Assembly (NCBI GenBank): GCA_043823195.1
Contig: JBDRAZ010000038.1
Location: forward strand, 3,592-67,591
DNA: 64,000 nucleotides
From: an archaeon
GTDB taxonomy: Archaea; Nanobdellota; Nanobdellia; Woesearchaeales; JBDRAZ01
Direction of reading: 5' to 3'
Positions 14,351 to 61,980 of the stretch are shown in pieces; positions within the stretch are counted from its first letter, which is position 1; every line of letters starts with the position of its first letter. A program made the position numbers and the translations under genes. The notes under the pieces were generated by a model that had not been told where the DNA came from, searched no databases, and was given only the letters and a program-made list of their open reading frames with translations.

Positions 14351-14408
14351 TTTAAACGGAATTCAATAAATAGCAATACTTTTAAATTCCAATAAACTTA
14401 GTTTTAAT

Positions 14409-14973: not shown

Positions 14974-15321
14974 TTACTTTTTTAATTTAATAATCGATAT
15001 TTTTATTTCTGTAAATATATCGTAACACAAATTTCGGTTAGAAAATATACTGTATAAGGATTCAACAAGAAGAATCACAGAAATTATTTCCCAGTGATCC
15101 AATAGAAAACCTACGATTTCATTCCAATAATTGCCAAAGTGATTTAATCCGTCTGGATCTTGATCTACCATTAGTAATACTTCATATTCCCAAGAAGGTT
15201 GCTTCCACCATAGATAGATTATTACAATTGCTTGGACTATTCCACGTTCTCGATTTCTTTCCATCAAATTTAGACAGTCACATTTAGCTAATATATATAT
15301 CGATAGATGGATTTTATTCAA
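14974..15321 (-). CDS. hypothetical protein
   Basis: 115-aa ORF with no motifs. Confidence 0.3.
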   Translation of the reverse strand: MNKIHLSIYILAKCDCLNLMERNRERGIVQAIVIIYLWWKQPSWEYEVLLMVDQDPDGLNHFGNYWNEIVGFLLDHWEIISVILLVESLYSIFSNRNLCYDIFTEIKISIIKLKK

Positions 15322-15382
15322 GTCCTAGCCATAGATTTATATAATCCAAAGTATACAACCTAAATGCTTAAAGGATATTAAT

Positions 15383-34795: not shown

Positions 34796-36009
34796 TATAC
34801 TGCACCATGTTTTCAAGCCTCACGCTGCCCACGGGGGCACACCATTACTATTCCGGGGTTTCCCGGCTGCTCAGCGGATTCGGGACGGGCATTGCCTTCA
34901 GCAAAATACTCGGGATGAGGCCACAGAGGCAGGACACGGTCCTTGCTAACATCGGCCCGTTCGGATTCATTTACCACTATCTCCGGCAGAGGCATAACCT
35001 GCATTTCAGGATTGTAAGGGATGTCCAGGCGCCCCTGCTCTCAAGCTATCTCTTCTGCGAAAACATATGCTCGACCCTAATGGAAGACTATGATGCTGTC
35101 CTGTTCCCCTCAGAGTATGCAAGGCAATTGTACATCAGACTGTTCCCGCGGCTCAACTGCAATAATACGTTTGTCTGCTATCCCATTCTGCACAGGTTTC
35201 CGGAACAGCAAACACGGCACAGGACCCGGCGGAAGACAATAGGCTGCATCGGGAGGCTCAGCGAAGACAAGAACATTGACCAGCTGCTTGAGGCATTTTT
35301 CGGCATGAATGATTTTGACCTGGTTCTGTGCGGGCATCAGGTCCAGCCATACCTGAAAGAGAATATAGTCAGGATGATGCGGAACAGGGGCCTTGAGGAA
35401 AGCAGGATAGAATTCACAGAGACCAGCAGCATATGGGAAATCCTGGACCGGATAGACATATTGGCATTTCCGTCAACATCATCAGTGGAGAGCCTGGGAA
35501 GAGTCATTATGGAAGCCAGCCACATGGGCATTCCTGTGGTCGCCGCAAACCATGCCGCATCACCGGAACTGCTGCCCGGGAGCAATCTCCTGCATGTTGC
35601 ATATAATAACGGGCCGGTCAGCCTGGAAAACCCGAAGCCGTTGGGGACCGTCTCGGTTGAAGAGCTCAGGGACAAGCTGAAGACCTCTCAGGCCATTGGA
35701 AGCAATGACTATTATCATGACCATGATGCCAAGCTGAAATGCATCCTGGACGGCAGCTGCAGGCCAGATGAAGCCAGGGACCTCGACAGGGAGGTAGTGA
35801 GATTTATTGAGGCTGCCAGGGTGCGCCTGAATGACTACCGCATCCCGGCAAGAGAGGCGGTAAAGGCTGCAGTTGCGCATCTGTCAGCCGGCAATTATGC
35901 TGATTTTGCAAAGACCGGCTATGAGATAGCTGAGGGGCTCAACTACAGGCCCTATCTGACACTTGCGCTGGATTTGCCAGGGGATCTAGAGCAGAATAGG
36001 AGCCGCTGA
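34783..36009 (+). CDS. glycosyltransferase family 4-like
   Basis: The C-terminal region SVESLGRVIMEASHMGIPVVAANHAASPELL resembles the GT1/GT4 EX7E nucleotide-sugar binding motif. The true start may be downstream. Confidence 0.5.
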   Translation: MVCMIYCTMFSSLTLPTGAHHYYSGVSRLLSGFGTGIAFSKILGMRPQRQDTVLANIGPFGFIYHYLRQRHNLHFRIVRDVQAPLLSSYLFCENICSTLMEDYDAVLFPSEYARQLYIRLFPRLNCNNTFVCYPILHRFPEQQTRHRTRRKTIGCIGRLSEDKNIDQLLEAFFGMNDFDLVLCGHQVQPYLKENIVRMMRNRGLEESRIEFTETSSIWEILDRIDILAFPSTSSVESLGRVIMEASHMGIPVVAANHAASPELLPGSNLLHVAYNNGPVSLENPKPLGTVSVEELRDKLKTSQAIGSNDYYHDHDAKLKCILDGSCRPDEARDLDREVVRFIEAARVRLNDYRIPAREAVKAAVAHLSAGNYADFAKTGYEIAEGLNYRPYLTLALDLPGDLEQNRSR

Positions 36010-36967
36010 TGAGCCAGGCAGAATACCTGAGCCCTGACATGCACTCCTCCAGATAGGGGCATTGCCTGCACCCGTCTGCCACAATCTCAAGGCTCCTCAG
36101 CTGGCGCATTGCTTCTGTGTGCCAGGCATTGTATATTGAATCGCTGAGTGCACTGCCCAGGTCCTTTTTGATAAAATAGCTGGGATGGATCCGCCCCCTT
36201 GCATCTACTGCCAGAAGGCTCCTTCCGTCATCATTTATGCCCCCCACAAGCACAGACCTGCTCATCTCTATTTCAGCTGCACAATAGGGCACGGCGTTTG
36301 CTATCTGGACATGGATTTTGTATTTATTGTTCAGGCTCCAGATCCTCCTGATTGCTGTTCGGGCATCATCCTGCGACCAGGGATGGGGGTTCGTCTCCGT
36401 CGGAACCGGGCGCAGCAGGAACCAATCTGCAGGAATCTGCGAGAAGATCTGATAATAGCTTTCGAGGGTCTTGATATTCCCTGTTGTGAGGATGGTGCAG
36501 AAGCTGGCCCTGTAGCCGCTGCGCCCCACAAGGCTGATCTTGCCCTCATCAATATTATGGAAGGAAACCAGAATCTCATCAGCCAGGCCGAGAGCCGGAT
36601 TCTTGACGGTTGCATTCGTGTTCAGTATGACATAGAGGCCTTTCTTCCTTGCGTATTTTATTATCTCAGGCAGGTCTTCTCTCAGGCAGGGCTCGCCGCC
36701 GGTGATCCGTATAGCCTTAACATGAGAATCAGCTATGTTGTCGATAATCCTGATGGCACCTGTTTTCGAGATGTCCGGATACCTTTCAGGGGCGAAGCAG
36801 AAGGCGCAATCCAGGTTGCATCGGGTCGTGATCTGGAGCTTGACCTCTTCCGGAACATCGTATTCAGGGCTGGCCCGCCCAATCGTACCTGAACACCCAT
36901 GCAGGTGCCTGCAGGACATGCAGCCAAGATGCTTGGCAGAACCAGTGGAAAAGCAGAGTGGTTTCAT
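35939..36967 (-). CDS. radical SAM enzyme with SPASM/twitch-type C-terminal Fe-S domain (HxsC-like paired maturase candidate)
   Basis: TTRCNLDCAFCF is the CxxxCxxC motif. ITGGEPCL is the SAM-binding motif. C-terminal DGCRQCPYLEEC is present. The start codon overlaps the stop of the upstream 70-aa ORF. Confidence 0.75.
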   Translation of the reverse strand: MKPLCFSTGSAKHLGCMSCRHLHGCSGTIGRASPEYDVPEEVKLQITTRCNLDCAFCFAPERYPDISKTGAIRIIDNIADSHVKAIRITGGEPCLREDLPEIIKYARKKGLYVILNTNATVKNPALGLADEILVSFHNIDEGKISLVGRSGYRASFCTILTTGNIKTLESYYQIFSQIPADWFLLRPVPTETNPHPWSQDDARTAIRRIWSLNNKYKIHVQIANAVPYCAAEIEMSRSVLVGGINDDGRSLLAVDARGRIHPSYFIKKDLGSALSDSIYNAWHTEAMRQLRSLEIVADGCRQCPYLEECMSGLRYSAWLISGSYSALDPLANPAQVSDRACS

Positions 36968-37179
36968 CAGTAGTGCGTATGCGACCCGACAGCGGTATTG
37001 CCTGATTTTGCAACAGTAACTACGCCCGCCTTAACGCTTTTAGAGGCAAGGGCCGCAGCAACGGCAGCCGTCCCGATGAATGCGCCGACCGTCACCATGG
37101 ATTGCTTTGATATCTTGCCCTTTTCTGACTTGACATATGCTGCAAGTTTCTTTTTGATTCTGGGCAGAGTAGTTCTCAA
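36967..37179 (-). CDS. 70-aa peptide encoded between the two radical SAM genes (candidate substrate/precursor)
   Basis: Sequence is MRTTLPRIKKKLAAYVKSEKGKISKQSMVTVGAFIGTAAVAAALASKSVKAGVVTVAKSGNTAVGSHTHY. Its stop overlaps the downstream radical SAM start and it is on the same strand as both radical SAM genes. Confidence 0.4.
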   Translation of the reverse strand: MRTTLPRIKKKLAAYVKSEKGKISKQSMVTVGAFIGTAAVAAALASKSVKAGVVTVAKSGNTAVGSHTHY

Positions 37180-37240
37180 ACTATTTCACTCCTTTTTTCC
37201 AACCTAAAACCGCTGCTTGAAATATTTAAATGTTTCCCTT

Positions 37241-38602
37241 TTATCTGACATCTTCTATCCAATCGAGGAATAGGCGCCTGCATTCGCTGCTTTTCAGCAT
37301 CTTTGAGAAGAGGTAATCAAACTGAAGCTTTGCCAGCCTGCACCGGTCATCATTTGGGAGCTGCGGGATGGGATTTCCTGTCTTTGCGTAGCTGCGTACC
37401 GGGCAGATGCCGCAATAGGGCTTCCAGATGCAGGCATCGCAGATCAGGGTTTCATTGACCGAGAGTTCAACCAGGCCCTTTACATCCGGTGATTTGAGCA
37501 GATCCCCATATGTGTGCTCCTGCACGTCGCCAACCAGGAAAAAGTCGTCACCGGTCAGCCTGGCCTCATCACAGGAGTAGATATCGCCGTTTGTGTCATA
37601 GGCAAGGGTGCCTATCACGGCGCCGCAGGGGCTGTCCATGCAGAGGTAGCGTGGGTTTGCATCTGTCAGGATCTTTTTAAGCATGAAACAGGTTCCCTTT
37701 TCCTTCAGGGTTCCCTTCTCAATCAGGCTGTCCATTGCCTTTTTCCAGAACCCGAAATACTCCTCAATTTCATACCCCACCGTCTCCCAGTTCCGGTCCG
37801 CGCGGTTAATCCTTGACACCGGCTGCAGCCAAATCCGCTCAAAACCAAGCGATGCGTATTCATCAATGATTTCCTGATGGTACGGAAGCGATGCACGCGT
37901 AACCACGAGGAGGGCTTCAATCATCCATGGCTTTTTTTTCTTAACTTCCCTAATCCACTTCACTGCAGCCTCATAGGAGCCTCTGCCGCCGGGATCAGGG
38001 CGGTTCATGTCATGCAGCAGCTTATGGCCATCAAGCGAGACCATGATCTTTACGCTTTTCTCCAAACAATAATCCAGAATGCCCTTGCTCATGAGCGTGA
38101 GATTTGTGACAATCACAAACTCAATATCCTTGTTGTGCTTGTGGTTGAGTTTTTCGGACAGCTCTATTACTAGTTTCACTATCGGGAAATTGAGCAGCGG
38201 CTCGCCGCCCTGGAATTCTATGCGGATGGATTCAGACGGCGTCTGGAAGATGAAATCCACAACCGCCTTTGCCACCTTAGGTGTCATGTCTGTTTCCTCT
38301 GCGCCTATTGCCGAATGGCAGTATGTGCAGTTCAGGTTGCAGCGCATGGTCGGGACCACAACATGCAGGGATGGTCCGCCCGACAGGCAGGCATATTTGT
38401 TCCTGTACCTCTTCTGAATCTTCTTAAGGCTCTTTTTGGTGAGGATCATGCCATGCTTTTCCAGCTTATCCCCTCCATCCGGATGCCCCTGGCGGTACCT
38501 GATGTAGTCCGGCTTGCTGAGGGCCAGCCACTGGCCGCAATCGTTGACAAGAAGATAACGGCTGCCTATGCGTTTCGTCCTGACAATACCCTGACTAGGC
38601 AT
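37241..38602 (-). CDS. radical SAM enzyme with SPASM domain and ~90-aa N-terminal extension (HxsB-like paired maturase candidate)
   Basis: PTMRCNLNCTYCH is the CxxxCxxC motif. EFQGGEPLL is present. The C-terminus CDACIWKPYCGICPVR is SPASM-like, with auxiliary cysteines CMDSPCG. Confidence 0.75.
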   Translation of the reverse strand: MPSQGIVRTKRIGSRYLLVNDCGQWLALSKPDYIRYRQGHPDGGDKLEKHGMILTKKSLKKIQKRYRNKYACLSGGPSLHVVVPTMRCNLNCTYCHSAIGAEETDMTPKVAKAVVDFIFQTPSESIRIEFQGGEPLLNFPIVKLVIELSEKLNHKHNKDIEFVIVTNLTLMSKGILDYCLEKSVKIMVSLDGHKLLHDMNRPDPGGRGSYEAAVKWIREVKKKKPWMIEALLVVTRASLPYHQEIIDEYASLGFERIWLQPVSRINRADRNWETVGYEIEEYFGFWKKAMDSLIEKGTLKEKGTCFMLKKILTDANPRYLCMDSPCGAVIGTLAYDTNGDIYSCDEARLTGDDFFLVGDVQEHTYGDLLKSPDVKGLVELSVNETLICDACIWKPYCGICPVRSYAKTGNPIPQLPNDDRCRLAKLQFDYLFSKMLKSSECRRLFLDWIEDVR

Positions 38603-38849
38603 TTTGCATTAATCCCAGAACATAGTTGTAGAATTCATATCCGAGTGTGGAAAGAGCAATGGAACCGGATTTGGGCGAGAGTGAGATGAACAGCTTATTT
38701 TTTACATCGCCGTCAAGGGCTACCCAGCAGCTGTCTGTGAAGGCCTGGGATGCCTCGATAATGGCTGAATAATCATATATCCTTGTATCTATGAAAAGCC
38801 TGACCTCGTTTTTCGCTTCATCCACCACTATTCCTTCTCCTGCACCCAT
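38595..38849 (-). CDS. small protein (84 aa), paralog of the adjacent upstream ORF; HxsD-like candidate
   Basis: MGAGEGIVV...RIYDYSAIIEASQAF...EFYNYVLGL aligns with the upstream ORF MGEGVGEY...KIYALDVVHSAAYTL...ELLNYAVYK. Its stop overlaps the downstream radical SAM gene. Confidence 0.5.
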   Translation of the reverse strand: MGAGEGIVVDEAKNEVRLFIDTRIYDYSAIIEASQAFTDSCWVALDGDVKNKLFISLSPKSGSIALSTLGYEFYNYVLGLMQNA

Positions 38850-39259
38850 GGTTTTCTTATGCCTTCCGGATCATCTTCACTGGCCCCAAAATCCTCTTCC
38901 TCATCAAGGAGGGTTTTCTCTGCCTGCTTTTTTTCTGCACCTGCTGACAGGGCCTTTTTTACTATCTCTGTGCGGATTTCGTTATTTTTTTCAATCTGCG
39001 ATTTATATACTGCATAATTCAGAAGCTCATTATTAAACATCCTTCCAATCCTTAGGAGGTCTGCCTTTACTGTCGGCCTTATCTCAACCAGGATCTCCTT
39101 ATCAGGATCCCCTGTGACAACAATATACGCCCTGTCAATCAGCGTGTAGGCTGCTGAATGAACCACATCCAGCGCATATATTTTCGGATTCACTGATATG
39201 ACTAGGTAATCTTTGTGAATCTCAAGATTTCCAGCGTATTCCCCCACACCCTCACCCAT
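38828..39259 (-). CDS. small protein (~143 aa from internal Met), paralog of 38595-38849, with acidic C-terminal tail
   Basis: Start chosen at MGEGVGEYAGN, just after the prepilin peptidase stop. The C-terminal tail is DEEEDFGASEDDPEG. Confidence 0.45.
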   Translation of the reverse strand: MGEGVGEYAGNLEIHKDYLVISVNPKIYALDVVHSAAYTLIDRAYIVVTGDPDKEILVEIRPTVKADLLRIGRMFNNELLNYAVYKSQIEKNNEIRTEIVKKALSAGAEKKQAEKTLLDEEEDFGASEDDPEGIRKPWVQEKE

Positions 39260-39297
39260 CGTTCGGGAACTAATCTTTGTATATAAAATCTTCGATT

Positions 39298-40380
39298 TCA
39301 GATAAGGGGCAGGATGTATAGCCTGATGCAGATGAGAAAATCGCCTTGGCACAGCAGAGTAAGGGCGGCCCCAAGAAGCATGAAGGGTGCGAAGGGAAGC
39401 GTATGGAAGATTCTTATGGTATGGTCGGGCAGCCTGCCCTGGTTGTGCAGGTCAATTATTTCTGTTATCTGCTTTTTTGTCAGTCCCTCGGTTGTTGCGC
39501 CAAACACCAGCCTGGGGGATGCCTGCTGGAACAGGCTTTGAATAAAGCTGTATGATATCCCGCTGCGTTTCCTCAGGATATCGTGATCATCCAGGATATT
39601 TTCAGCAAGGTGCATCCCGGGCTTCAGATTCTCAATATATATCTCGGATGTGAGGGCATCATATGAGAGTGTCAGAACATAGTACCTCATGACCAGGAAT
39701 AATACCAGTATTGTCAAGAATGAGCGGATGTAGGGCATTGTAAGGGTCTCATCATGCCCAAGGGTCAGGGCCAAGACCGACACCAGAATCCCGACCAGGG
39801 ATATCTTTATGCTGAATTTCTCAAGAATGAAGAGGATTACAAAAAGTATCACTACCATGACAAAGAAATCAAATGGGATATCCATCAGGGCAAAAATCCC
39901 TCCGATAATCCATGAGAATCCGAACAGGAACACAGCCATGCCCAGCATCAAGGATGGGCTTAGTATCATCTTCACGGCATTAAGCTGATGCCTGATGCCT
40001 GTTTTTATTATAATCCTGAACAAGTAATAGAAAAACAAGGGAACAAATGTGTTTACCAGGAGTGTGAAGGCAGTCAGATAGGGGCTGTGGATTCCGTGAA
40101 TGTATACTGTCCCGGGAATGAGCGCAGAGTATGCAAGGAAGAGCTTTGCATCGCCTGCAGACCACAACCCGGCAATCCAGATGATAAACCCGTAAAAAAA
40201 AGACATGAGCAGATTTATTGCATAGACCAAGAGGGAAGACCCGGTGACCAGTGTGGTGACAAGGGAGTATGCAAGGGCAATCACTATCCACTTGTTCCGT
40301 ATTATTCCGCGCCGGAAGTCTTCAAATGAGGTTAGAAGACCAAAAAAGACCAGGAACGGAACAAATATAACCGGATGCAT
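39298..40380 (-). CDS. type IV prepilin/preflagellin peptidase (A24 family) with long polytopic C-terminal extension
   Basis: The N-terminus LTSFEDFRRGIIRNKWIV carries the first catalytic Asp and IxN. AGDAKLF carries the second catalytic Asp. There are more than eight TM segments. Confidence 0.55.
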   Translation of the reverse strand: MHPVIFVPFLVFFGLLTSFEDFRRGIIRNKWIVIALAYSLVTTLVTGSSLLVYAINLLMSFFYGFIIWIAGLWSAGDAKLFLAYSALIPGTVYIHGIHSPYLTAFTLLVNTFVPLFFYYLFRIIIKTGIRHQLNAVKMILSPSLMLGMAVFLFGFSWIIGGIFALMDIPFDFFVMVVILFVILFILEKFSIKISLVGILVSVLALTLGHDETLTMPYIRSFLTILVLFLVMRYYVLTLSYDALTSEIYIENLKPGMHLAENILDDHDILRKRSGISYSFIQSLFQQASPRLVFGATTEGLTKKQITEIIDLHNQGRLPDHTIRIFHTLPFAPFMLLGAALTLLCQGDFLICIRLYILPLI

Positions 40381-40381: not shown

Positions 40382-41995
40382 CTATATGCTGCCTTTTCTG
40401 AGACCGCCTTTCCTGAGGCTGCCTGCTACTGTAATTGCTTCTATACCAGGCAGGGTACCTTTCTCAATCAGCTCCAGCGTGGCGCCGCCGGCATTGGAGA
40501 CTGCCGTAAACGAGCCTCGGCTGCCGAACCGGTTTATGACTGCTGTGGTGTCTCCGCCGCCTGCAATAGTTGTTCCTCCGGAGCCCTTTGCCTCGCCGAT
40601 TGCCTGCAGCACCATTTCATGAACATGGGAAAGTCCTTCTGCCCGCGGATCCTCTATGCTTAAGGGCCCGGCCAGAAGCACAATGCCTGCATCTCTGACC
40701 CTGCTGCAGATACTTGCGACGCTCCGGGGGCCCGGTGCTATGCCCAGCCAGCCGGCCGGAATGCCGGCAGCCCTGCCATGGACCACGGCCCTGCAGCCCT
40801 TAGGGAGATAGCCGCCCTTGTCAGGGGCCTTGTCCGCGATAACATGATCTTCTGCAAGCATCAGCTGGATCCCTTTATCATTGGCCTTCAGAATCACCCG
40901 GGCAGCAAACACTGTCTGCTCCCCTTCCTGGCCCCACCTCATGTAAGAATCACCTATCAGCCCCCTGATGTCACCAGGGGTAATGCCCAGAATCGCCAGA
41001 AGCTTGTCAGACTTGGATTTCTGAACCTGCGCCTCACGGTCTGAGGCACGCCGTGATGCATCTGGCTTGCCGTCCTCTTTTATGGCCTTAACCTCCCCGG
41101 CCAGTGTTTTGTTATATAAGTCAATGATGCTGCCGGCAGAATCCAGGTTCCCTTTTATCCTGCCAAGAAACTCTTGTGCCACAAGGAAGGTGTAGACAAC
41201 GGCTCCGCCAACAACCAGTGTGTCTCCGGCCCTCATCTTGTCCATGAGGGCATTGGTGACTGATATTTTTGACGTGATTCCCGGGTCAGTCTCGATCTTC
41301 TTGCCCGAAAGGAAGAGTACAAATGAACCCCGGTTTTCATCCTCCAGCCCATGGGACAGGCTGCCCATGTGCCTGACTATTTCAGGGTATCTCAGTCCGA
41401 ATACAGCCTGCCCTCCATTTGAGACCACATATCGGGGCGTGCTGACTATTGTTGCTTCAGGCCTGTGGTTCTGGGCCTCGGCCTCGTTAACATAAACAGC
41501 GCCATGCCCGCCAAGATCTGCTATGAACCTGGCAAAGTCCTGGTCATCTGCATTGGCTTCCGGGTCATACCGCACATTCTCCAGAACGCAAAGCTGCCCC
41601 GGCTTAAGCTGGCTCGTTATTTGTTTGACCTCTGCCCTGTTTTTGTTCACGCTTCTCGGTGAAGAGCCATCGAGCGCATTTGGAGCCATCAGAACCGGAT
41701 GTCTCAGGCAATTGTCTTCTTCCATCAGTTCCTGCAAGCGGATTACAGCAGGGGCCATGCTCAGGTCAGGGTCAGCCCCCTTGGGCCTCCCCAGCCAGCC
41801 CGCAGCTACGACCACCCTGCAATTTTTTTCAACCAGGTGTTTAATCGTAGGGAGGACATCCCTTATCCTGGAGTCATCTGATATCCTTTCGGCAGTCAGC
41901 AGCTCTTTTGCCGTATCAATAGGCAGGTCAAAAGCAACACGCAGAATCACGCACTTGTCATCAATGTCAACATCCCTGATTGTCTTAAGCTTCAA
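40382..41995 (-). CDS. pgk: phosphoglycerate kinase (unusually long, 537 aa)
   Basis: N-terminal KTIRDVDIDDKCVILRVAFDLPID...DDSRIRDVLPTIKHL...LGRPKG. C-terminal GGGDTTAV...SNAGGATLELIEKGTLPGI. The extra ~120 aa lie in the middle. Confidence 0.75.
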   Translation of the reverse strand: MKLKTIRDVDIDDKCVILRVAFDLPIDTAKELLTAERISDDSRIRDVLPTIKHLVEKNCRVVVAAGWLGRPKGADPDLSMAPAVIRLQELMEEDNCLRHPVLMAPNALDGSSPRSVNKNRAEVKQITSQLKPGQLCVLENVRYDPEANADDQDFARFIADLGGHGAVYVNEAEAQNHRPEATIVSTPRYVVSNGGQAVFGLRYPEIVRHMGSLSHGLEDENRGSFVLFLSGKKIETDPGITSKISVTNALMDKMRAGDTLVVGGAVVYTFLVAQEFLGRIKGNLDSAGSIIDLYNKTLAGEVKAIKEDGKPDASRRASDREAQVQKSKSDKLLAILGITPGDIRGLIGDSYMRWGQEGEQTVFAARVILKANDKGIQLMLAEDHVIADKAPDKGGYLPKGCRAVVHGRAAGIPAGWLGIAPGPRSVASICSRVRDAGIVLLAGPLSIEDPRAEGLSHVHEMVLQAIGEAKGSGGTTIAGGGDTTAVINRFGSRGSFTAVSNAGGATLELIEKGTLPGIEAITVAGSLRKGGLRKGSI

Positions 41996-42012: not shown

Positions 42013-43140
42013 CTAGAGGTGCAATACCTTTCTTATAAGTTTTTTGGTAAAGAGAATTGAGCGGATATAAACCGGCTGCCTCAGCCTGATCGCGTGCTCC
42101 GGGCAGAGCTCATAGCAGCAGTAGCACTTGATGCATCTGCCGTACGCTATTCGCGGATATGGCCTCATTGAGATGGCCCCAACCGGGCAGGCCTTCCGGC
42201 ATTTTTTGCACTGGATGCACAACCGGTCCCTGCATACGGGTCTTGCCAGGATGAGACCCTGGAACAGGCTCAGCAATGCTGCCGGGATTCTGCGGCTGAA
42301 AAGCCGGGGCTTGTCGTAGTCAACCCTCTTCGTACTGCCCACCTCTTCCGGCTTATCGGTGAGCCCGCGCTGGAGGCCAAACCTGTTTGTCAGGACATCA
42401 TCCCTCCCAAAGCCAATCCTTTCCGAGGCTACAATGTCAAGTGCCAGGCAGTCCTGTGATGCAAGGATCAGCCCGGTATTTCGGGGATGCCCCCCCCTTC
42501 CGGGGCCGTAGCCCTCAAGGCCGATCACCCCGTCCATTATGGCTATAATAGGGATGTCAAAGGCCGTGTAAATATCCAGCAGAAGCTGTGAAAAGAGCTC
42601 TGCGGTCTTGCCGATCCGGTGAAATTCGGATTTTGTGCCTCCCGGAAGGAAGCCATAGAGATTCTTTACCGCTCCGGTGTACCTGGTCAGCGCATGTGTC
42701 TTTAGTTTCGGCAGGTTGACTATGTAATCAATTTCCCTGAGGCGGGCTGAAAGGGGAACCTCGCTAAGGACCATTCCCTTGACAGGTTTCCTCTCAATTA
42801 CCGTATTCTCAAAAAACAGTGGCTCGGCCCTGAATCTCCTGATGACCTCATCCATTCCGGTGATCCGGAATATCTCCCGGCCGGCAGCAAGGGATGGTCC
42901 CATGCTCTCGGCAATAATTATCCTGCAGCCACGTTTCCTCAGAAGCCTGCAGACCGCTGCAACAACCGAAGGGTGCGTGGTTATTGCCTCATCAGGGTGC
43001 GCTGCGAGAAGAAGATTTGGCTTGATCAGGACTGTGCCCCCGGAAAAGCTGAAGCTGATTTTTTTCAGTGCTGTTTTTATTGCCCTCTCTACGAGAACAG
43101 GATCATAGGATGGGCATTCTGCAACTGAAACCTTTGCCAT
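42013..43140 (-). CDS. DUF362-domain protein with C-terminal 2x[4Fe-4S] ferredoxin domain
   Basis: CIQCKKCRKACP and CIKCYCCYELCP are ferredoxin cysteine motifs. The N-terminal domain resembles DUF362. Confidence 0.5.
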   Translation of the reverse strand: MAKVSVAECPSYDPVLVERAIKTALKKISFSFSGGTVLIKPNLLLAAHPDEAITTHPSVVAAVCRLLRKRGCRIIIAESMGPSLAAGREIFRITGMDEVIRRFRAEPLFFENTVIERKPVKGMVLSEVPLSARLREIDYIVNLPKLKTHALTRYTGAVKNLYGFLPGGTKSEFHRIGKTAELFSQLLLDIYTAFDIPIIAIMDGVIGLEGYGPGRGGHPRNTGLILASQDCLALDIVASERIGFGRDDVLTNRFGLQRGLTDKPEEVGSTKRVDYDKPRLFSRRIPAALLSLFQGLILARPVCRDRLCIQCKKCRKACPVGAISMRPYPRIAYGRCIKCYCCYELCPEHAIRLRQPVYIRSILFTKKLIRKVLHL

Positions 43141-48405: not shown

Positions 48406-49473
48406 CTATTTTCTCTCAATACCCAGTATGCTCAGGAAAAATGAGGAAAAGATTGTCTGCATTCCGATGATAAGCACTGTGAGATTTGTTATTGTGAGCG
48501 TGAATCCGGAAACCAGCAAGCCGGTAAGCAGAATCAGGCTTCCAATTATTATCCCTTTCTCGACAGAGATGTGCTTGTTAAGGAGGTCAATCCAGGGGTC
48601 ATGTTCACCCAGGTGAACAGAGGCATATGTTTTGGCAAATATTCCCAGCAAAAGAATCTGGTAGCCGCCGATTGCCGACAGGCTGAATATGAACGGGACA
48701 GGCAAATGCAGCAACCCATCAGACAGTGTGCTGTAGAGCAGCAATGAAAAAGCCAGGACAAGCAGCAGAAATCCCGGAATGATAAACAGATAATCCGGCG
48801 AGTACAGCAGCATAAACCTCAGGTGCTTCCAGCCATCCCGGAAGGAGTCCAGCTTTGACTCCCCAACACGGGGATAATATGATATCGGCACCTCGCATAC
48901 CCGCAGGTCTGCCTTTACTGCCTTAATTATCATCTCTGTTGCAAATTCCATCCCGGTTGTGTTCAGCTTAAGCCTGGCAAGCGCCTCTGCCTTGATTGCG
49001 CGCATGCCTGAGTGAACATCGCTCAGCCGTGATCCGAAGAGCAGGTTGGTTATGCCGGACAGGAGGGGATTTCCCAGATACCTATGCAGGAACAGCATTG
49101 CGCCTTTCTTGATATCGCCCTTCAGACGCGTGCCAACAACAAGATCACAGCCCTTTATGGCTTTAAGGAATTTTGGAATTTCATTAAAATCGTATGTATT
49201 GTCAGCATCCCCGTACAGAATGACGGTGCCCTTTGCGTGCCTGAACCCCTCCAGAAGCGCATTGCCATAGCCCTTGGTGTGCCTGACGACGGTTGCCCCA
49301 AGCTTACGCGCAATCCCTGCGGAATCATCATGCGATGAATCGGAGATAATTATCTCCCCGTTTATCTTCTCCCTGGCAAGCACTCCCTGTATCTTCTTTA
49401 TGCAAAGTCCTACAGTGGCCTCTTCATCCCTGCAGGGAAGTATGACTGAGAGGTACGGATTCATGAGGAACAT
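48406..49473 (-). CDS. GT2 glycosyltransferase, dolichyl/polyprenyl-phosphate sugar synthase-like, with C-terminal TM domain
   Basis: LSVILPCRDEEATV plus YGDADNTYD (DxD) identify a GT2 fold. The C-terminal third is hydrophobic. The gene is the last in the radical SAM array operon. Confidence 0.7.
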   Translation of the reverse strand: MFLMNPYLSVILPCRDEEATVGLCIKKIQGVLAREKINGEIIISDSSHDDSAGIARKLGATVVRHTKGYGNALLEGFRHAKGTVILYGDADNTYDFNEIPKFLKAIKGCDLVVGTRLKGDIKKGAMLFLHRYLGNPLLSGITNLLFGSRLSDVHSGMRAIKAEALARLKLNTTGMEFATEMIIKAVKADLRVCEVPISYYPRVGESKLDSFRDGWKHLRFMLLYSPDYLFIIPGFLLLVLAFSLLLYSTLSDGLLHLPVPFIFSLSAIGGYQILLLGIFAKTYASVHLGEHDPWIDLLNKHISVEKGIIIGSLILLTGLLVSGFTLTITNLTVLIIGMQTIFSSFFLSILGIERK

Positions 49474-49491
49474 CCTAGATGCAGAATCTAT

Positions 49492-50481
49492 TTAAATCCT
49501 TTCATCATGACGGCGCCTGTTGAAGATATCAACGAACTCAGGCAGGCAGTGCCGGCACTCGGGATAAAAATGCCCGGATTCAAGGCGTTTTCTAAAGGCC
49601 TGCATCCGCTCACCCACCCATAATTCCCTAAACGGCCTATCCCGGATATTTCCAATGACGTTTTCGTACATGCTTGCAAGTATGCAGCATGCAAGAACAT
49701 CGCCCCTTGAATTGACAAAGGCCATGTCCCCCGGGGCATAGCAGAATTCCGGAACATCATGCTCAAAGAGGCCGTGCCTGACCAGGGAGCCGATGTTGGA
49801 CGCTATTTTTTGCTCAGCCATTGATTTTTGTGCCTCAAGAAGGCACCTGCTGATTTCAGTCTCGGGCAGTCCCCGTAAGGAGAGCTGCCTGTTGGTTGAC
49901 CATTCCAGGAGCACCGAGAAATAGACAGATGATATGCCTGCGCGCCTTGCAATGCCTGCATAGCCTGCCAGGCTGGCCAGGTTTACCCTGGTGACCACGG
50001 CGCCAAGCCTGATAACGGGCTTTTCACTGGCCTGCCTTCTTTTCTCTTCAGAAAGGCTCTTAATTGCCGCATACACCATCCGAAAGACCCCTTTGCCGCG
50101 AATCCCGTCATTGTCTGCCTCGGTTGTGCCATCCAGCGAAAAACAGATGTCATCCAGCTGAATATCAACAACCGCTTTAATCAGGGAGCTGTCAAGCATC
50201 GTTGCGTTGCTTGTAAGTGAGGTGAAAAGGCCGAGGTCTTTGGACTTCCGAATAATCTCCAGGATGTCCTTTTTCATGAAGGGTTCACCGCCGCCGGTGA
50301 GGTCTGCTGATTTTACACCCATTGATCTGGCATCTTCCAGAAGGCTGAATATTTCTTCTTTTGTCAGCTCCTCACCCGCTTTCGCGTTGGGGTCGGTCTT
50401 CTTTTCCAGCCTCCAGCAGGTTTTGCATCTAAGATTACATGCATCTGTAGGGCTGATCATAAGCTTGTCAGGGCCCTTCAT
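49492..50481 (-). CDS. radical SAM/SPASM enzyme, array member A
   Basis: ISPTDACNLRCKTCW (CxxxCxxC) and LTGGGEPF are present. C-terminal ACCILAS...CRHC. Overlaps the start of B by 4 nt. Confidence 0.8.
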   Translation of the reverse strand: MKGPDKLMISPTDACNLRCKTCWRLEKKTDPNAKAGEELTKEEIFSLLEDARSMGVKSADLTGGGEPFMKKDILEIIRKSKDLGLFTSLTSNATMLDSSLIKAVVDIQLDDICFSLDGTTEADNDGIRGKGVFRMVYAAIKSLSEEKRRQASEKPVIRLGAVVTRVNLASLAGYAGIARRAGISSVYFSVLLEWSTNRQLSLRGLPETEISRCLLEAQKSMAEQKIASNIGSLVRHGLFEHDVPEFCYAPGDMAFVNSRGDVLACCILASMYENVIGNIRDRPFRELWVGERMQAFRKRLESGHFYPECRHCLPEFVDIFNRRRHDERI

Positions 50482-51548
50482 TTTTCAAGCTCCTTGCGAA
50501 TTTCAAGATTGTTTGTAACCAGTGTTGTGCAGCATTTCCTGCAGTAGTCGGACAGGCTGCTGTCAAGCATATCCTGCCTGCGTTTCTGAAAATACGGGCC
50601 GTACCAGATCTGTTCCAGGGTTCTATTCCTGATGTTCTCGGTGGCTGCCTCATCAAAGAAGCCGCATGGCCCGACCCTGCCATCCACCCTTATGCCCATC
50701 CTGTAGAACGGCTCAAAACAGGGCATGTTAACAAAGCCGGCCCTGCCTGTTGAAAGCACCTCTTTCATGCTGCCTGTTTTTTCAACAAGCCTTGTTTCAA
50801 AGAACCTGCGCAGATTTGTGGTGATTGCATATTTATCCGCGAGGCCCGCCGCTTTTGTGGCAATCCGGGTGAATTCATGCTGCTGAACGGGATTCAGCCT
50901 CAATGCCTCACCCGCTTCAGAATATGAAGTGACCGGCTCGATAAAGACTGCATCCGCACCTATATTCTTGGCCAGACTTATTATCTCAGGAACCTGCCCA
51001 TAGTTGCGGTTAACCAGGACAACACCAATCTCCAGATACGGTTTGCCGGATTTCTGCCTGCGGCTGCTGAAATGCCTGATGTTCTCAACAGCCCTCCTGA
51101 ATGACCCATTGACACCGGTCAGATAGTCATTGGTCTTGCCATCAGCCCCGTGGAGGCTGACCTTAATATGATCCCACCCCAATCCGACAAGGTCCTCAAT
51201 CTGTTTGTGCGTGAAGTTTGTGCCATTGGTGCAGAGGTAGCCCTGCATGCCGCGGGCTTTGACAAGCTTCATAATCCCCATAGTGTCTCGACGGACAGTC
51301 GCTTCACCGCCCCCGATCACCTTGAACTCCCCAACACCCAGTTTCGCGGCATCTTCGATTATTTCCTTGTATTTGCCCAAAGGCAGCTCTTCGAGATAAT
51401 CAATATTATCGGCACCCACCCTCCAGCAAAATCTGCATCGGTGGTTGCACCTGAGCGTAGGCGCTATCTCAATCCCCCAGGGAGGGGCACTATGACCCCC
51501 GGCCCAGGTCCTGAGGCGCCGGATTACCTCGTTCATGCCCGCCCCCAT
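50478..51548 (-). CDS. radical SAM/SPASM enzyme, array member B
   Basis: IEIAPTLRCNHRCRFCW. C-terminal PCFEPFY...GPCGFFD...IWYGPYF...YCRKCC. Confidence 0.8.
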   Translation of the reverse strand: MGAGMNEVIRRLRTWAGGHSAPPWGIEIAPTLRCNHRCRFCWRVGADNIDYLEELPLGKYKEIIEDAAKLGVGEFKVIGGGEATVRRDTMGIMKLVKARGMQGYLCTNGTNFTHKQIEDLVGLGWDHIKVSLHGADGKTNDYLTGVNGSFRRAVENIRHFSSRRQKSGKPYLEIGVVLVNRNYGQVPEIISLAKNIGADAVFIEPVTSYSEAGEALRLNPVQQHEFTRIATKAAGLADKYAITTNLRRFFETRLVEKTGSMKEVLSTGRAGFVNMPCFEPFYRMGIRVDGRVGPCGFFDEAATENIRNRTLEQIWYGPYFQKRRQDMLDSSLSDYCRKCCTTLVTNNLEIRKELEK

Positions 51549-52693
51549 ATGCGGTGCAGCGCCCGGCCAACACCAAAGGCGGCCACTGACTGCCCCAATT
51601 CAGCAACCTGATGGAATCTTCCTTTCGAGAGAAGAACCCTGAGACGCCTGTTCTCGTCCTGAATCCAGAGGCTGCACTTTGCACAGTCCGAATGCTTCCG
51701 GTTTTGTGATATCTGCAGCCTCATTTTGCTGAAGTACGGACCATACCAGATATCCTTAAGGCTTTTGGCCAGGATGTTGTCGGCATCAGGGTCGTAGATG
51801 TTGCAGCAGGGCTGCACAGATCCGTCCGGCCTCACAACCATTTTATGCCAAGGCTGGTAGCAGTAGTAATCCGAAAACCCGTGCGCCTGCCTGTCCGGAC
51901 CTGTCTCGATGTTTTCAGGATCATGTCTTCCTGAAGAGGGTCTTGCTGATGCATGCCGTGATAGGAAGCTGACATTTGTCGTTATCCTCTGATGATGCGC
52001 TGCCACAATGGCGGCATCTATCTCTTCGGGAAGCCTGTCTTTGTCGTCATCGTCGAGGGCCAACCTGCCTGTGTTTGGGTTAGCCACCAGCGGCTCAAAG
52101 TTCACCGAATCAGCGCCGTACTTTGCCCCCAGCAGTATCATTTCAGCAAGCTTGCTGCAGTTGTGCCTGTTCACTACCGTGTTTATTCCCAATGCGGGAC
52201 GTTTCCACCTAGGGTACCGGCAGAGTTTCAGGAGCGCTGAGCAGATTCTATCATAGGATCCCTGCACACCGCAGAGGTAATCATGCGTTCTGCTGTCGGG
52301 ACCTTCCAGTGATATGAATACGGCATCCCATCTGATACCGACCAAGCCGGGAACCATCCCTGACAGCAGCGTGCCATTGGTCGTTAGCTGGCCCCTCAGC
52401 CCCCTTTTTTTTATGTGCTGCATGAGGGGCAGGATTGCCTCCTTTCTGCAAAGGGGTTCTCCGTCACCTGACAGGTGAACCTGCCGCACGCCCATATCAG
52501 CCGCATCATCAATAATCTGCAGGCAGCGTCCGGTTGTGAGCTGGTCTTTGCCCTCCCTTGTAGTCCCCCGGAGGCTACCTTCGCAGAATTTGCATTCAAG
52601 GTTGCAGCGGTATGTGGGATTCAGGTCAAGAGCGACCGGACCGGCAGGGGTGCCGTTTTTCCATTTCCCAAGCCTGGTTACCTTGTGATACAT
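51533..52693 (-). CDS. radical SAM/SPASM enzyme, array member C
   Basis: LDLNPTYRCNLECKFCE. C-terminal YCYQPWH...QPCCNIYD...IWYGPYF...CAKCS. Start at internal MYHKV. Confidence 0.8.
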   Translation of the reverse strand: MYHKVTRLGKWKNGTPAGPVALDLNPTYRCNLECKFCEGSLRGTTREGKDQLTTGRCLQIIDDAADMGVRQVHLSGDGEPLCRKEAILPLMQHIKKRGLRGQLTTNGTLLSGMVPGLVGIRWDAVFISLEGPDSRTHDYLCGVQGSYDRICSALLKLCRYPRWKRPALGINTVVNRHNCSKLAEMILLGAKYGADSVNFEPLVANPNTGRLALDDDDKDRLPEEIDAAIVAAHHQRITTNVSFLSRHASARPSSGRHDPENIETGPDRQAHGFSDYYCYQPWHKMVVRPDGSVQPCCNIYDPDADNILAKSLKDIWYGPYFSKMRLQISQNRKHSDCAKCSLWIQDENRRLRVLLSKGRFHQVAELGQSVAAFGVGRALHRIWGRA

Positions 52694-56459: not shown

Positions 56460-56466
56460 TGGCAGA

Positions 56467-59716: not shown

Positions 59717-59736
59717 ATGATGCTCTTGGATCCGGC

Positions 59737-60816: not shown

Positions 60817-60836
60817 CCGTTTCACTCTTTCTTCCA

Positions 60837-61928: not shown

Positions 61929-61980
61929 CATTATGACCACCGGAGAACAAAGAACATAATTTAAATGTTGCTGTGATTCA

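What the first reader, a model, noticed from the sequence alone, without database searches (positions are those of the whole stretch)
35939..39352. Paired radical-SAM peptide-maturation operon with a translationally coupled 70-aa peptide and two paralogous small proteins (divergent Hxs-like system)
The minus-strand order is: a small protein, its paralog, a 453-aa SPASM rSAM, a 70-aa ORF, then a 342-aa SPASM rSAM. All junctions overlap (ATGA-type or 8-22 nt).

The arrangement matches the His-Xaa-Ser system as I recall it from TIGRFAMs: two dedicated rSAMs HxsB (~450 aa) and HxsC (~360 aa) plus a ~100-aa HxsD. The two small proteins both end with an hhN-Yx(V/L) segment (ELLNYAVYK and EFYNYVLGL). 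This is reminiscent of the LLNDYxLRE motif that I recall defines HxsD.

The 70-aa ORF lacks His-Xaa-Ser repeats. It has a basic N-terminus, a Gly/Ala-rich hydrophobic core (MVTVGAFIGTAAVAAALA) and a C-terminal GSHTHY. If it is the substrate, this would be an Hxs-type maturase pair acting on a new peptide class.

The peptide's K-G-K-I-S-K...hydrophobic layout is weakly class-III-signal-like, and a prepilin peptidase gene sits directly upstream.
Basis: partly seen in the sequence, partly recalled or inferred. Interest (0 to 1): 0.85.

Follow-up and report, generated by a model that had tools for sequence, protein, structure and literature searches.

The report
Archaeal His-Xaa-Ser-type peptide maturation operon
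This is a real seven-part archaeal operon, a distant variant of the bacterial "HXS" radical-SAM system recently shown to block phage DNA entry. Its 70-residue precursor has lost the His-Xaa-Ser repeats, a different second radical-SAM enzyme stands in for HxsC, and a dedicated prepilin-type peptidase is attached.

Summary
The 453-aa protein passes the curated HxsB model (389 bits, cutoff 370). The two small proteins are HxsD homologues. The 70-aa ORF is a genuine gene.

- **Precursor.** Its leader is conserved in about 65 of 80 related loci, usually directly after hxsB, and in 99 cluster representatives out of 1.8 billion proteins. The core SGNTAVGSHTHY matches the conserved SGGTATG(T/S)HxHH motif that normally precedes the HxS repeats, then stops at Tyr. 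At least two other peptides end the same way (…THTHY, …THSHY).
- **Second rSAM.** The 342-aa enzyme is not HxsC. It belongs to an unmodelled rSAM/partial-SPASM family found next to these precursors in nine other loci, mostly with Tyr-terminated peptides.
- **Peptidase.** The upstream A24 peptidase belongs to the system. It sits directly before hxsD in 39 of 47 archaeal loci and inside related operons on viral contigs.

NCBIfam already models parts of this DPANN/CPR variant (HxsA3, HxsA4, HxsD_rel), but no paper in the searched library describes it.

Verdict: a new variant of a known kind. It offers a minimal substrate for solving HxsB chemistry.

The parts
39298..40380 (-). A24-family aspartic peptidase with an archaeal PepC C-terminal domain (360 aa). 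Proposed dedicated leader peptidase of the system.
   Evidence: Pfam Arc_PepC 40 bits, Peptidase_A24 24.7 bits. NCBI names it an 'A24 family peptidase C-terminal domain-containing protein'. It lies directly upstream of hxsD on the same strand in 39 of 47 archaeal loci with room for it, and in 0 of 22 bacterial loci. Both catalytic Asp are kept: D21 in 97% and D77 in 100% of 43 homologues. The same peptidase type sits inside hxs operons on viral contigs.
38828..39259 (-). HxsD homologue, long archaeal form (143 aa), with a conserved C-terminal DDPEGIxKPW tail.
   Evidence: TIGR03976 HxsD 42.3 bits, E 7e-11, below the cutoff of 50. Homologues in L001, L003 and L004 carry Pfam PF27806 HxsD. The start at ATG 39259 equals NCBI MFH1849275.1. 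Present in 77 of 82 loci. Tail motif.
38595..38849 (-). HxsD-like paralogue (HxsD_rel), 84 aa from the ATG. The start may be the GTG about 6 codons downstream, because this exact 84-aa sequence is not in NCBI.
   Evidence: NF038315 HxsD_rel 41.6 bits against a cutoff of 41. Present in 71 of 82 loci. 20% identity to the 143-aa protein, E 1e-4. Start uncertainty.
37241..38602 (-). HxsB radical SAM/SPASM maturase (453 aa).
   Evidence: TIGR03978 389.3 bits against a cutoff of 370. NCBI names it HxsB. All Cys of the CxxxCxxC and SPASM motifs are invariant in alignment A1. 36% identity to an annotated Aeromonas plasmid hxsB.
37180..37240 (-). 61-nt spacer before the precursor gene, with a TATA-like TTTAAATA (37223-37230) and a GGAG ribosome-binding site (37189-37192). 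Possibly an internal promoter for the precursor.
   Evidence: Read directly from the sequence. The promoter function is inferred and was not tested.
36967..37179 (-). Precursor peptide gene (70 aa, TTG start), HxsA3/HxsA4-type leader and minimal core. Leader motifs lie at residues 5-27 (37099-37167) with invariant G21 (37117-37119). The hydrophobic segment is residues 28-45 (37045-37098). An AxA-like VKA is at residues 49-51. The core SGNTAVGSHTHY is residues 59-70 (36970-37005).
   Evidence: NF038309 HxsA3 24 bits, E 2.4e-5, leader only. Homologues in about 65 of 80 loci, mostly directly after hxsB. 99 hits among 1.84e9 representatives, the best being P0128 at 56% identity over the full length and ending ...ATHTHY. 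Conservation profile. Core context motif.
35939..36967 (-). Accessory radical SAM enzyme with a partial SPASM (4-Cys) C-terminal domain (342 aa). It is translationally coupled to the precursor gene (TGATG) and is not HxsC.
   Evidence: Pfam Radical_SAM 46.6 bits, SPASM 20.9 bits against a cutoff of 21.5. No NCBIfam family reaches its cutoff; the best is NirJ/AhbD-like at 72 bits against about 500. Full-length homologues at 30-38% identity lie next to HxsA-like genes in L013, L017, L021, L025, L032, L068, L070, L076 and L088. Only the rSAM core resembles canonical HxsC.

Best explanation
The locus is an archaeal variant of the His-Xaa-Ser (HXS) radical-SAM maturation system. The gene order is A24 peptidase, HxsD, HxsD-like, HxsB, precursor, accessory rSAM.

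**Shown**
- Family assignments for each gene.
- Conserved synteny across related loci.
- Conservation of the leader and of the core motif.
- Intact catalytic motifs in both rSAM enzymes and in the peptidase.

**Inferred mechanism**
1. The 70-aa precursor is made in the cytoplasm.
2. Its conserved leader (P6, K9K10, Y15, E19, G21, I23, K25, G32) is recognised by HxsB together with the two HxsD paralogues. This follows the E. coli system, where HxsD binds an rSAM partner and all components are needed for HxsA processing.
3. HxsB modifies the conserved (S/T)-H-x-H motif, here S66-H67-T68-H69. In E. coli the modification is +8 Da on SHRSS.
4. The accessory 342-aa rSAM adds a second change, probably involving the C-terminal Tyr.
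5. The basic leader plus hydrophobic segment then targets the peptide to the membrane with its C-terminus outside.
6. The operon's A24 peptidase removes the leader after the invariant Gly21.
7. This leaves a 49-residue membrane-anchored peptide that displays a modified His/Tyr tip.

In repeat-rich relatives the same scaffold displays an HxS array. That would be the counterpart, in organisms without a cell wall, of the peptidoglycan-anchored E. coli HxsA that blocks phage DNA entry.
For: **Family assignments**
- HxsB is above the curated cutoff, and the HxsD-type hits are reported.

**Synteny**
- HxsD is present in 77 of 82 loci and HxsD_rel in 71 of 82.
- A precursor is found in 63 of 82 loci, usually within 120 nt after hxsB.
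- The A24 peptidase is adjacent in 39 of 47 archaeal loci.

**Precursor**
- Leader residues E19, G21 and K25 are 100% conserved in 65 sequences.
- The core fits the conserved context (Y/S)SGGTAT(G/A)(T/S)HxH position by position.
- Independent minimal peptides end ...ATHTHY and ...GTHSHY.

**Accessory rSAM**
- It has full-length homologues in nine other Hxs loci. In two of them it is fused to an HxsC-like rSAM domain.
- It co-occurs with Tyr-terminated precursors in 8 of 9 cases, against 12 of 51 otherwise. Fisher p = 3.5e-4, not corrected for phylogeny.

**Peptidase**
- Both catalytic Asp are conserved.
- The same A24+PepC peptidase is embedded between hxsD_rel and a true hxsC on viral contigs. 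Those contigs carry a precursor with the same leader.

**Published E. coli system (PMC13128918)**
- HxsB, HxsC and HxsD are all needed for non-canonical N-terminal cleavage of HxsA. No protease has been identified.
- A +8 Da modification lies on SHRSS.
- The effector acts in the periplasm.

**Chemical precedent**
- rSAM enzymes are known to crosslink His C2 to Cβ of a nearby residue (PMC11499958).
Against: - No chemistry, cleavage site or localisation has been tested.
- Gly21 is followed by six polar residues (KISKQS) before the hydrophobic stretch. This differs from classical class III signals, where the hydrophobic helix starts at +1.
- The leader invariants are equally conserved in CPR bacteria that lack an adjacent A24 gene. 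They may therefore be rSAM/HxsD recognition elements rather than a peptidase site.
- An AxA-like site (VKA|G, residues 49-51) would also allow ordinary signal-peptidase cleavage.
- With only two His, DNA binding by charge, as proposed for E. coli HxsA, is implausible for this peptide.
- The window's HxsD scores below the curated cutoff.
- The locus sits among glycolytic genes, not in a defence island.
- The Tyr correlation is not corrected for phylogeny.
Confidence: 0.7

Rival explanations
1. The system is the same, but the product is a small secreted RiPP. The hydrophobic segment acts as a Sec signal peptide and signal peptidase I cuts after VKA (residue 51). This releases a modified peptide of about 19 residues, GVVTVAKSGNTAVGSHTHY, for example a His/Tyr metal-binding compound. 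The A24 peptidase would serve pili and be only a neighbour.
For: The layout is a basic N-region, an 18-residue hydrophobic core and an AxA-like site. Ala is the commonest residue (66%) at the position of residue 51 in archaeal homologues. CPR loci have the same leader without an adjacent A24 gene. The His-x-His-Tyr terminus resembles a metal site. A large protein divergently encoded upstream of the A24 gene in 14 other loci carries, in the one with a Pfam hit, a MopE-like Cu-binding motif.
Against: The A24 peptidase is adjacent in 39 of 47 archaeal loci, while the genes further upstream vary. An orthologous A24+PepC peptidase sits inside hxs operons on viral contigs. A 27-residue N-region with invariant E-x-G-x-I-x-K is not needed for Sec export. 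In E. coli, HxsA cleavage is not canonical signal-peptide removal.
Confidence: 0.2
2. The 70-aa ORF is a decayed remnant of a longer HxS-repeat precursor, with the repeats lost by slippage or a premature stop, and the system is on its way to inactivation.
For: Most relatives carry 2-54 HxS repeats. Repeat tracts are unstable. The window's peptide stops exactly where the repeats normally begin.
Against: Independent peptides of the same length end in the same way: P0128, 72 aa...ATHTHY; P0138...GTHSHY; L019, 75 aa...GTHANY. Of the 99 closest cluster representatives, 26 have no HxS. All enzymes keep their catalytic motifs. The stop overlaps the start of an intact downstream rSAM gene, so no repeat remnant follows. 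Repeat-poor peptides recur with this rSAM type.
Confidence: 0.07
3. The 342-aa rSAM is a cofactor-biosynthesis enzyme (AhbD/NirJ/MoaA-like) that is unrelated to the peptide and merely adjacent.
For: Its best NCBIfam hits are NirJ, AhbD and MoaA-type models. A word-index search found only relatives at 29% identity, next to FtsK-like ATPases and not in Hxs loci.
Against: All of those hits are far below cutoff (72 bits against about 500) and cover only residues 45-121. Full-length homologues at 30-38% identity sit beside HxsA-like genes in nine Hxs loci and are fused to HxsC-like domains in two. A 1-nt overlap couples it to the precursor gene.
Confidence: 0.05

Closest known systems
Canonical HXS antiphage system of Pseudomonadota (hxsD-hxsB-hxsC-hxsA; Li et al., Nat Commun 2026, PMC13128918; example locus Aeromonas plasmid NC_009349, L170)
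   Same: HxsB is an orthologue-level relative at 36% identity and above the curated cutoff. An HxsD-type small protein with the LLN-Y motif is present. A second rSAM is present. The substrate has an N-terminal export signal and Ser/His motifs. N-terminal processing is part of maturation.
   Different: No HxsC. There are two HxsD paralogues. The gene order is D-D'-B-A-rSAM rather than D-B-C-A. The substrate is 70 aa with no HxS repeat and no peptidoglycan-binding domain, and it has no detectable similarity to HxsA. A dedicated A24 peptidase is attached. The host is an archaeon, whereas the paper reports 99.7% of systems in Pseudomonadota and does not mention archaea.
NCBIfam variant families HxsA3 (NF038309), HxsA4 (NF038313), HxsD_rel (NF038315), HxsC4 (NF038332). 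These are database models only; no paper in the searched library names HxsA3, HxsA4 or HxsC4.
   Same: The leader is the same as in HxsA3/HxsA4. An HxsD_rel partner is present. The lineage setting is the same (DPANN archaea and CPR bacteria). The precursor lies directly after hxsB.
   Different: The window's peptide matches only the leader part of the models (24 bits against a cutoff of 65) because it lacks the repeats. Its partner rSAM is not of the HxsC/HxsC4 type. The A24 peptidase has no NCBIfam model.
Three-residue cyclophane (triceptide) rSAM/SPASM maturases acting on His motifs (HaaB, HtkB; PMC11499958)
   Same: These are rSAM/SPASM enzymes guided by a leader that modify short His-x-x motifs. 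They are a plausible chemical precedent for modification of the S-H-T-H-Y tip.
   Different: No family membership applies. The cyclophane-type models YhhB, AmcB and GrrM score only 62-77 bits against cutoffs of 310-445 for HxsB. The reported E. coli mass change (+8 Da) is not that of a simple crosslink (-2 Da).
Archaeal prepilin/preflagellin peptidases (FlaK, EppA, PibD) and class III signal peptides
   Same: The peptidase is of the A24 family with both catalytic Asp. The substrate has a basic N-terminus, an invariant Gly and a following hydrophobic helix.
   Different: Six polar residues separate the Gly from the hydrophobic stretch, and Glu/Lys rather than Lys/Arg precedes the Gly. The peptidase is genetically tied to rSAM genes, not to pilus or archaellum genes.
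PapB/SCIFF-type ranthipeptide maturases
   Same: In the closest relatives of this locus (L001, L003) the second rSAM is PapB-like (237 bits) and the precursor has a Cys-rich tail behind the same leader. This shows that the leader/HxsB/HxsD platform recruits different second enzymes.
   Different: The window has neither a Cys-rich core nor a PapB-like enzyme.

Membership tests
Canonical His-Xaa-Ser (HXS) system | HxsB rSAM/SPASM maturase (TIGR03978, cutoff 370 bits) | tested here: met
   389.3 bits, E 2e-116, full length. 36% identity to an annotated plasmid hxsB.
Canonical His-Xaa-Ser (HXS) system | HxsC rSAM maturase (TIGR03977, cutoff 267.9 bits) | tested here: not met
   HxsC is not among the best 25 NCBIfam families of the 342-aa protein. 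BLASTP against Aeromonas HxsC aligns only 69 residues of the rSAM core. In contrast, the rSAM of L004 and L175 does match HxsC.
Canonical His-Xaa-Ser (HXS) system | HxsD small protein (TIGR03976, cutoff 50 bits; LYW and LLNDYxLRE motifs) | tested here: inconclusive
   42.3 bits, E 7e-11, below the cutoff. There is no BLASTP similarity to Aeromonas HxsD. The motif is ELLNYAVYK. Homologues in sister loci pass (L004, 53.9 bits) and carry Pfam PF27806 HxsD.
Canonical His-Xaa-Ser (HXS) system | HxsA substrate with tandem His-Xaa-Ser repeats and a peptidoglycan-binding domain | tested here: not met
   Zero H-x-S triplets in 70 aa, no domain, and no alignment to Aeromonas HxsA.
Canonical His-Xaa-Ser (HXS) system | Gene order hxsD-hxsB-hxsC-hxsA (99.6% of systems; PMC13128918) | tested here: not met
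   The order here is A24-D-D'-B-precursor-rSAM, which is the usual order in the DPANN/CPR clade.
Canonical His-Xaa-Ser (HXS) system | Protection against phage by blocking DNA entry | not testable with these tools
   PADLOC has no HXS model. The host is an uncultured archaeon.
DPANN/CPR Hxs variant (NCBIfam HxsA3/HxsA4/HxsD_rel) | HxsD_rel protein (NF038315, cutoff 41 bits) | tested here: met
   41.6 bits, E 1e-10, a marginal pass.
DPANN/CPR Hxs variant (NCBIfam HxsA3/HxsA4/HxsD_rel) | Precursor reaching HxsA3 (cutoff 65 bits) or HxsA4 (cutoff 55 bits) | tested here: not met
   HxsA3 scores 24 bits on the leader only, and there is no HxsA4 hit. Repeat-rich relatives score 54-78 bits on HxsA4; two of the three pass the cutoff (66.1 and 77.7 bits) and one (54.1 bits) falls just short.
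DPANN/CPR Hxs variant (NCBIfam HxsA3/HxsA4/HxsD_rel) | Conserved leader (P-K-I-K-K ... F-L-x-x-E-E-G-K-I-S-K) and position directly after hxsB | tested here: met
   phmmer E 1e-17 to 1e-5 against ORFs in about 65 loci. P6, K9, K10, E19, G21, I23, K25 and G32 are retained. The gene starts 62 nt after hxsB.
Class III (prepilin-type) signal peptide substrates | A24 aspartic peptidase with both catalytic Asp | tested here: met
   D21 and D77 lie in W..GD.KLF and are conserved in 97-100% of 43 homologues.
Class III (prepilin-type) signal peptide substrates | [K/R]-[G/A] cleavage site immediately followed by the hydrophobic helix | tested here: not met
   The sequence is E19-K20-G21 followed by KISKQS, and the hydrophobic stretch starts at residue 28. 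The rule itself is from my own knowledge of archaeal class III signals.
rSAM/SPASM peptide maturases (Pfam PF13186 SPASM) | Seven-Cys SPASM domain binding two auxiliary clusters, tested in the 342-aa protein | tested here: inconclusive
   SPASM scores 20.9 bits against a cutoff of 21.5. Only P-x-C and CxxCx5C are conserved in the family, giving 4 Cys and enough for one auxiliary cluster.
Heme/cofactor rSAMs (NirJ, AhbD, MoaA) | Score above the equivalog cutoff | tested here: not met
   72 bits against 515 (NirJ), 65 against 500 (AhbD) and 56 against 325 (MoaA). Only residues 45-121 match.

The most novel reading that the evidence does not exclude
A prepilin-type (A24+PepC) peptidase acts as the dedicated leader peptidase of a radical-SAM modified peptide family that is widespread in DPANN archaea and also occurs on viral contigs. 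The product is a tiny, pilin-like, membrane-anchored peptide. Its His/Tyr tip, or an HxS array in relatives, is modified by HxsB and by a previously unmodelled rSAM family. That would make it the envelope-anchored counterpart of the bacterial HXS 'DNA-entry gate' in organisms without a cell wall. It would also supply the protease that the E. coli study could not identify.
Probability: 0.3. Interest if true: 0.8.

Novelty: new variant of a known kind. Interest (0 to 1): 0.6.

Why it matters
The HXS system was shown only in 2026 to stop phage DNA entry. Its chemistry (+8 Da on SHRSS) and its processing protease are still unknown, and it was reported as essentially confined to Pseudomonadota.

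This locus and its roughly 80 relatives change that picture in four ways:
- HxsB-centred systems are common in DPANN archaea and CPR bacteria.
- These systems use a different precursor family, anchored by a hydrophobic helix instead of a peptidoglycan-binding domain.
- They swap the second rSAM enzyme according to the type of core.
- In archaea and on some viral contigs, they carry a candidate processing peptidase.

The window's 70-aa peptide has a single S-H-T-H-Y motif. It is about the simplest natural substrate on which HxsB chemistry could be solved by mass spectrometry or NMR.

Tried and rejected
1. A word-index search with the 70-aa ORF found only itself. The exhaustive phmmer search was needed.
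2. The first genome scan, with HxsB alone, found nothing. An alignment of 24 HxsB sequences worked.
3. A word-index search with the 342-aa rSAM gave only relatives at 29% identity beside FtsK-like ATPases, not in Hxs loci. The true family emerged only from the HxsB-anchored loci.
4. The metagenome scan with the 342-aa family alignment used the generic GGEP pattern.
5. HxsD structure. A profile search of PDB sequences gave nothing significant. The single-sequence model is weak (pLDDT 66.7, and only one of five models folded). Its Foldseek matches to Rpb11/RpoL-like folds are not significant (TM 0.36-0.41, E > 5e-3). No conclusion was drawn.
6. I considered whether the N-terminal Cys motif of the 342-aa rSAM is a vestige of an HxsC C-terminus. 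The similarities are weak (E 1e-4 to 1e-2), and the L013 fusion lacks the motif at the junction. I dropped the idea.
7. PADLOC has no HXS model and gave only viperin-level rSAM similarity.
8. Haft and Basu 2011 is not held in the library.
9. I did not attempt dN/dS for the ORF. The only DNA-level relatives are about 55% identical in protein, so synonymous sites are saturated.

Full report
**What is in the sequence.**
On the minus strand, searches show six genes in this order:
- an A24 peptidase gene (39298-40380);
- a 143-aa gene (38828-39259);
- an 84-aa gene (38595-38849);
- a 453-aa rSAM gene (37241-38602);
- a 70-aa ORF with a TTG start (36967-37179);
- a 342-aa rSAM gene (35939-36967).

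The junctions are a 22-nt overlap, an 8-nt overlap, a 61-nt spacer and a 1-nt overlap (TGATG). The spacer before the 70-aa ORF carries TTTAAATA and GGAG.

The window comes from an unclassified NCBI 'archaeon' MAG, on a 107,585-bp contig. NCBI names only the 453-aa protein (HxsB). It calls the 70-aa and 143-aa proteins hypothetical, the 342-aa protein 'radical SAM protein', and the peptidase an 'A24 family peptidase C-terminal domain-containing protein'. The 143-aa start at ATG 39259 is the annotated one.

**Family assignments.**
- The 453-aa protein passes the curated HxsB model, at 389.3 bits against a cutoff of 370.
- The 84-aa protein just reaches HxsD_rel, at 41.6 against 41.
- The 143-aa protein hits HxsD at E 7e-11 but stays below the cutoff, at 42.3 against 50.
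- The 70-aa ORF hits the HxsA3 model through its leader only: 24 bits, E 2.4e-5, residues 5-52 against profile positions 2-46 of 81.
- The 342-aa protein has no family above cutoff, and HxsC is not among its hits.
- Pfam sees Radical_SAM in both enzymes, a sub-threshold SPASM in the 342-aa one, and Arc_PepC plus Peptidase_A24 in the upstream gene.
- Against a canonical, annotated hxsD-B-C-A locus from an Aeromonas plasmid (L170), HxsB is 36% identical. The 342-aa protein shares only a 69-residue rSAM core with HxsC. The small protein and the peptide show no BLAST similarity.

**Related loci.**
The HxsB relatives closest to the window, at 40-49% identity, come from DPANN archaea (Woese-, Nano-, Pace-, Aenigmat- and Altiarchaeota) and from CPR/Patescibacteria. 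I fetched 80 such loci plus a few by exact look-up.
- HxsD is present in 77 of 82 loci and HxsD_rel in 71 of 82.
- A homologue of the 70-aa ORF is present in 63 of 82, usually starting within about 120 nt after hxsB.

So D-D'-B-precursor is the conserved core of this clade, and the window's gene order is typical of it.

The second rSAM varies between loci:
- HxsC-like, for example in L004 (HxsC4 162 bits, HxsC 95 bits);
- PapB-like in L001 and L003, where the precursor carries a Cys-rich tail;
- the window's type;
- none nearby.

**The 70-aa ORF is a real precursor.**
- Its leader is 55% identical over 53 residues to the L001 precursor.
- Across 65 sequences P6, K9, K10, F/Y15, E19, G21, I23, K25 and G32 are 86-100% conserved, and the window keeps all of them.
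- An exhaustive phmmer search of 1.84 billion representatives gives 99 hits at E ≤ 1e-3. The best is a 72-aa peptide, 56% identical over the full length, that ends ...TVTATHTHY.
- The cores are very diverse. They contain 0 to 54 HxS repeats, Cys-rich tails or Thr/Pro-rich tails.
- Of the 99 closest representatives, 26 have no HxS and 45 end in Tyr.
- In 158 distinct peptides the first (S/T)HxH lies in a conserved context, (Y/S)SGGTAT(G/A)(T/S)HxHHxSH.
- The window's KSGNTAVGSHTHY matches that context residue by residue and then ends in Tyr-stop.

The peptide is therefore a minimal member of the HxsA3/HxsA4 leader family. It is neither a new class nor a decayed copy. Repeat-rich relatives reach the HxsA4 cutoff, while repeat-poor ones, like the window's, match through the leader only.

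**The 342-aa enzyme.**
It has full-length homologues at 30-38% identity in L013, L017, L021, L025, L032, L068, L070, L076 and L088. Most of them lie directly after the precursor gene. In L013 and L017 the domain is fused behind an HxsC-like rSAM domain.

The family keeps CxxxCxxC, GGEP, NTN, a P-x-C, CxxCx5C-x-GG and a G-x-YSA-x-DPLA-x-P tail. That makes only four conserved Cys in the C-terminal domain.

No NCBIfam model reaches cutoff for two other family members tested (L070 and L017).

Loci with this enzyme have Tyr-terminated precursors in 8 of 9 cases, against 12 of 51 elsewhere. Fisher p is 3.5e-4, and the test is not corrected for shared ancestry.

**The peptidase belongs to the system.**
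- In archaeal loci with at least 1.2 kb of sequence upstream of hxsD, an A24 peptidase gene lies directly upstream on the same strand in 39 of 47. In 22 bacterial loci it does so in none.
- Even the weakest of these show Peptidase_A24 or Arc_PepC similarity.
- Both catalytic Asp are conserved.
- Genes further upstream vary between loci.
- Independently, five IMG/VR viral contigs carry hxsD, hxsD_rel, an A24+PepC-like peptidase, a true hxsC (26% identity over 323 residues to Aeromonas HxsC), hxsB, a MORN protein and a precursor. That precursor has the same leader, followed by HRSHSSH repeats.
- Their peptidase aligns over its full length with the window's and keeps D21 and W-x-A-G-D-x-K.
- HxsB also occurs in deposited phage records.

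**How it probably works.**
The E. coli study shows the following (PMC13128918):
- HxsB, HxsC and HxsD are all required for a non-canonical N-terminal cleavage of HxsA.
- A +8 Da modification sits on the SHRSS motif.
- HxsD binds HxsC.
- The matured, peptidoglycan-anchored protein acts in the periplasm.

By analogy, and as inference:
1. The leader is the recognition element for HxsB and the HxsD pair.
2. HxsB modifies the conserved (S/T)HxH motif.
3. The accessory rSAM acts on or near the C-terminal Tyr.
4. The hydrophobic segment inserts into the membrane with the C-terminus outside.
5. The A24 peptidase cuts after the invariant Gly21.

rSAM enzymes that crosslink His C2 to a neighbouring Cβ give a chemical precedent (PMC11499958).

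Weak points:
- The site is not a classical class III site, because six polar residues follow the Gly.
- The leader invariants are equally conserved in CPR loci without an adjacent A24 gene.
- A VKA|G signal-peptidase site is an alternative.

For this two-His peptide a DNA-binding role is unlikely, and its biological role is open. The locus lies among glycolytic genes (PGK, GAPDH, PEP-utilising enzyme), not in a defence island.

**Novelty.**
NCBIfam curators have already modelled parts of this clade (HxsA3, HxsA4, HxsD_rel, HxsC4). No paper in the searched library names HxsA3, HxsA4 or HxsC4, and the 2026 paper does not mention archaea.

Beyond those models, three things are new:
- the repeat-less (S/T)HxHY-COOH precursors;
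- the accessory rSAM family;
- the dedicated A24+PepC peptidase.

This is a new variant of a known kind.

Noticed in passing
window 48406-62760 (- strand): A large cluster of nine radical-SAM genes with glycosyltransferases. It holds GT2 (48406-49473) and five tandem paralogous rSAM/SPASM genes (49492-54940, 25-37% identical to each other). It also holds two larger rSAM genes (54819-58212), a PMT_2-like glycosyltransferase (58043-59716) and two more rSAM/SPASM genes (59737-62063). None reaches an NCBIfam cutoff. They share only generic similarity with the rSAMs of other Hxs loci, and no link to the Hxs operon was found.
   Followed up: partly
window 42013-43140 (- strand): A DUF362 plus 4Fe-4S ferredoxin protein lies two genes upstream of the operon. 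Relatives occur inside two other Hxs loci: L061 at 11848-13335, and as the N-terminal domain of the 899-aa L013 fusion (DUF362-ferredoxin + HxsC-like rSAM + the window-type rSAM). It may be an electron donor for the rSAM enzymes, but the evidence is thin.
   Followed up: partly
window about 6000-16000: A low-GC island (0.32-0.42 against about 0.50 elsewhere). It carries a VRR-NUC nuclease (10092-10667), a PD-(D/E)XK nuclease (10770-11627), an M48 peptidase (12576-13781) and several ORFs with no family. It is possibly acquired DNA.
   Followed up: partly
window 38828-38900 (C-terminus of the 143-aa HxsD); alignment A3: The long archaeal HxsD proteins share a conserved C-terminal tail, DDPEGIA-x-PWEEK-x-G, behind an acidic linker. 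In the window it reads SEDDPEGIRKPWVQEKE. It is absent from the canonical 96-aa bacterial HxsD and looks like a docking motif.
   Followed up: no
L171-L175 (IMG/VR viral contigs), e.g. L175 331-5723: A third operon layout on predicted viral contigs: HxsD, HxsD_rel, A24-like peptidase, HxsC, HxsB, a MORN-repeat protein, and a precursor with the same leader plus HxS repeats and a Thr/Pro-rich tail. A related HxsB (50% identity) lies in a human-faecal 'Bacteriophage sp.' record, MT837156.
   Followed up: partly
L029, L033, L036, L042, L045, L051, L052, L057 and others, upstream of the A24 gene: In 14 of 40 archaeal loci an uncharacterised protein of more than 1000 aa is divergently encoded upstream of the peptidase gene. 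One copy has a MopE-like Cu-binding motif. It is not present in the window, where PGK lies upstream.
   Followed up: partly
L014 (two hxsB copies), L055 and L058 (two precursor genes each), L047 (six rSAM genes in a row after hxsB): Several relatives have duplicated hxsB or precursor genes, or long arrays of HxsC-like rSAM genes. This points to modular expansion of the system in genomes that are otherwise very small.
   Followed up: no
window 40382-41995 (- strand): The phosphoglycerate kinase ORF is 537 aa, which from memory is longer than the roughly 400 aa usual for this enzyme. It ends 1 nt before the A24 peptidase start, so the Hxs operon may be co-transcribed with a glycolytic gene.
   Followed up: no
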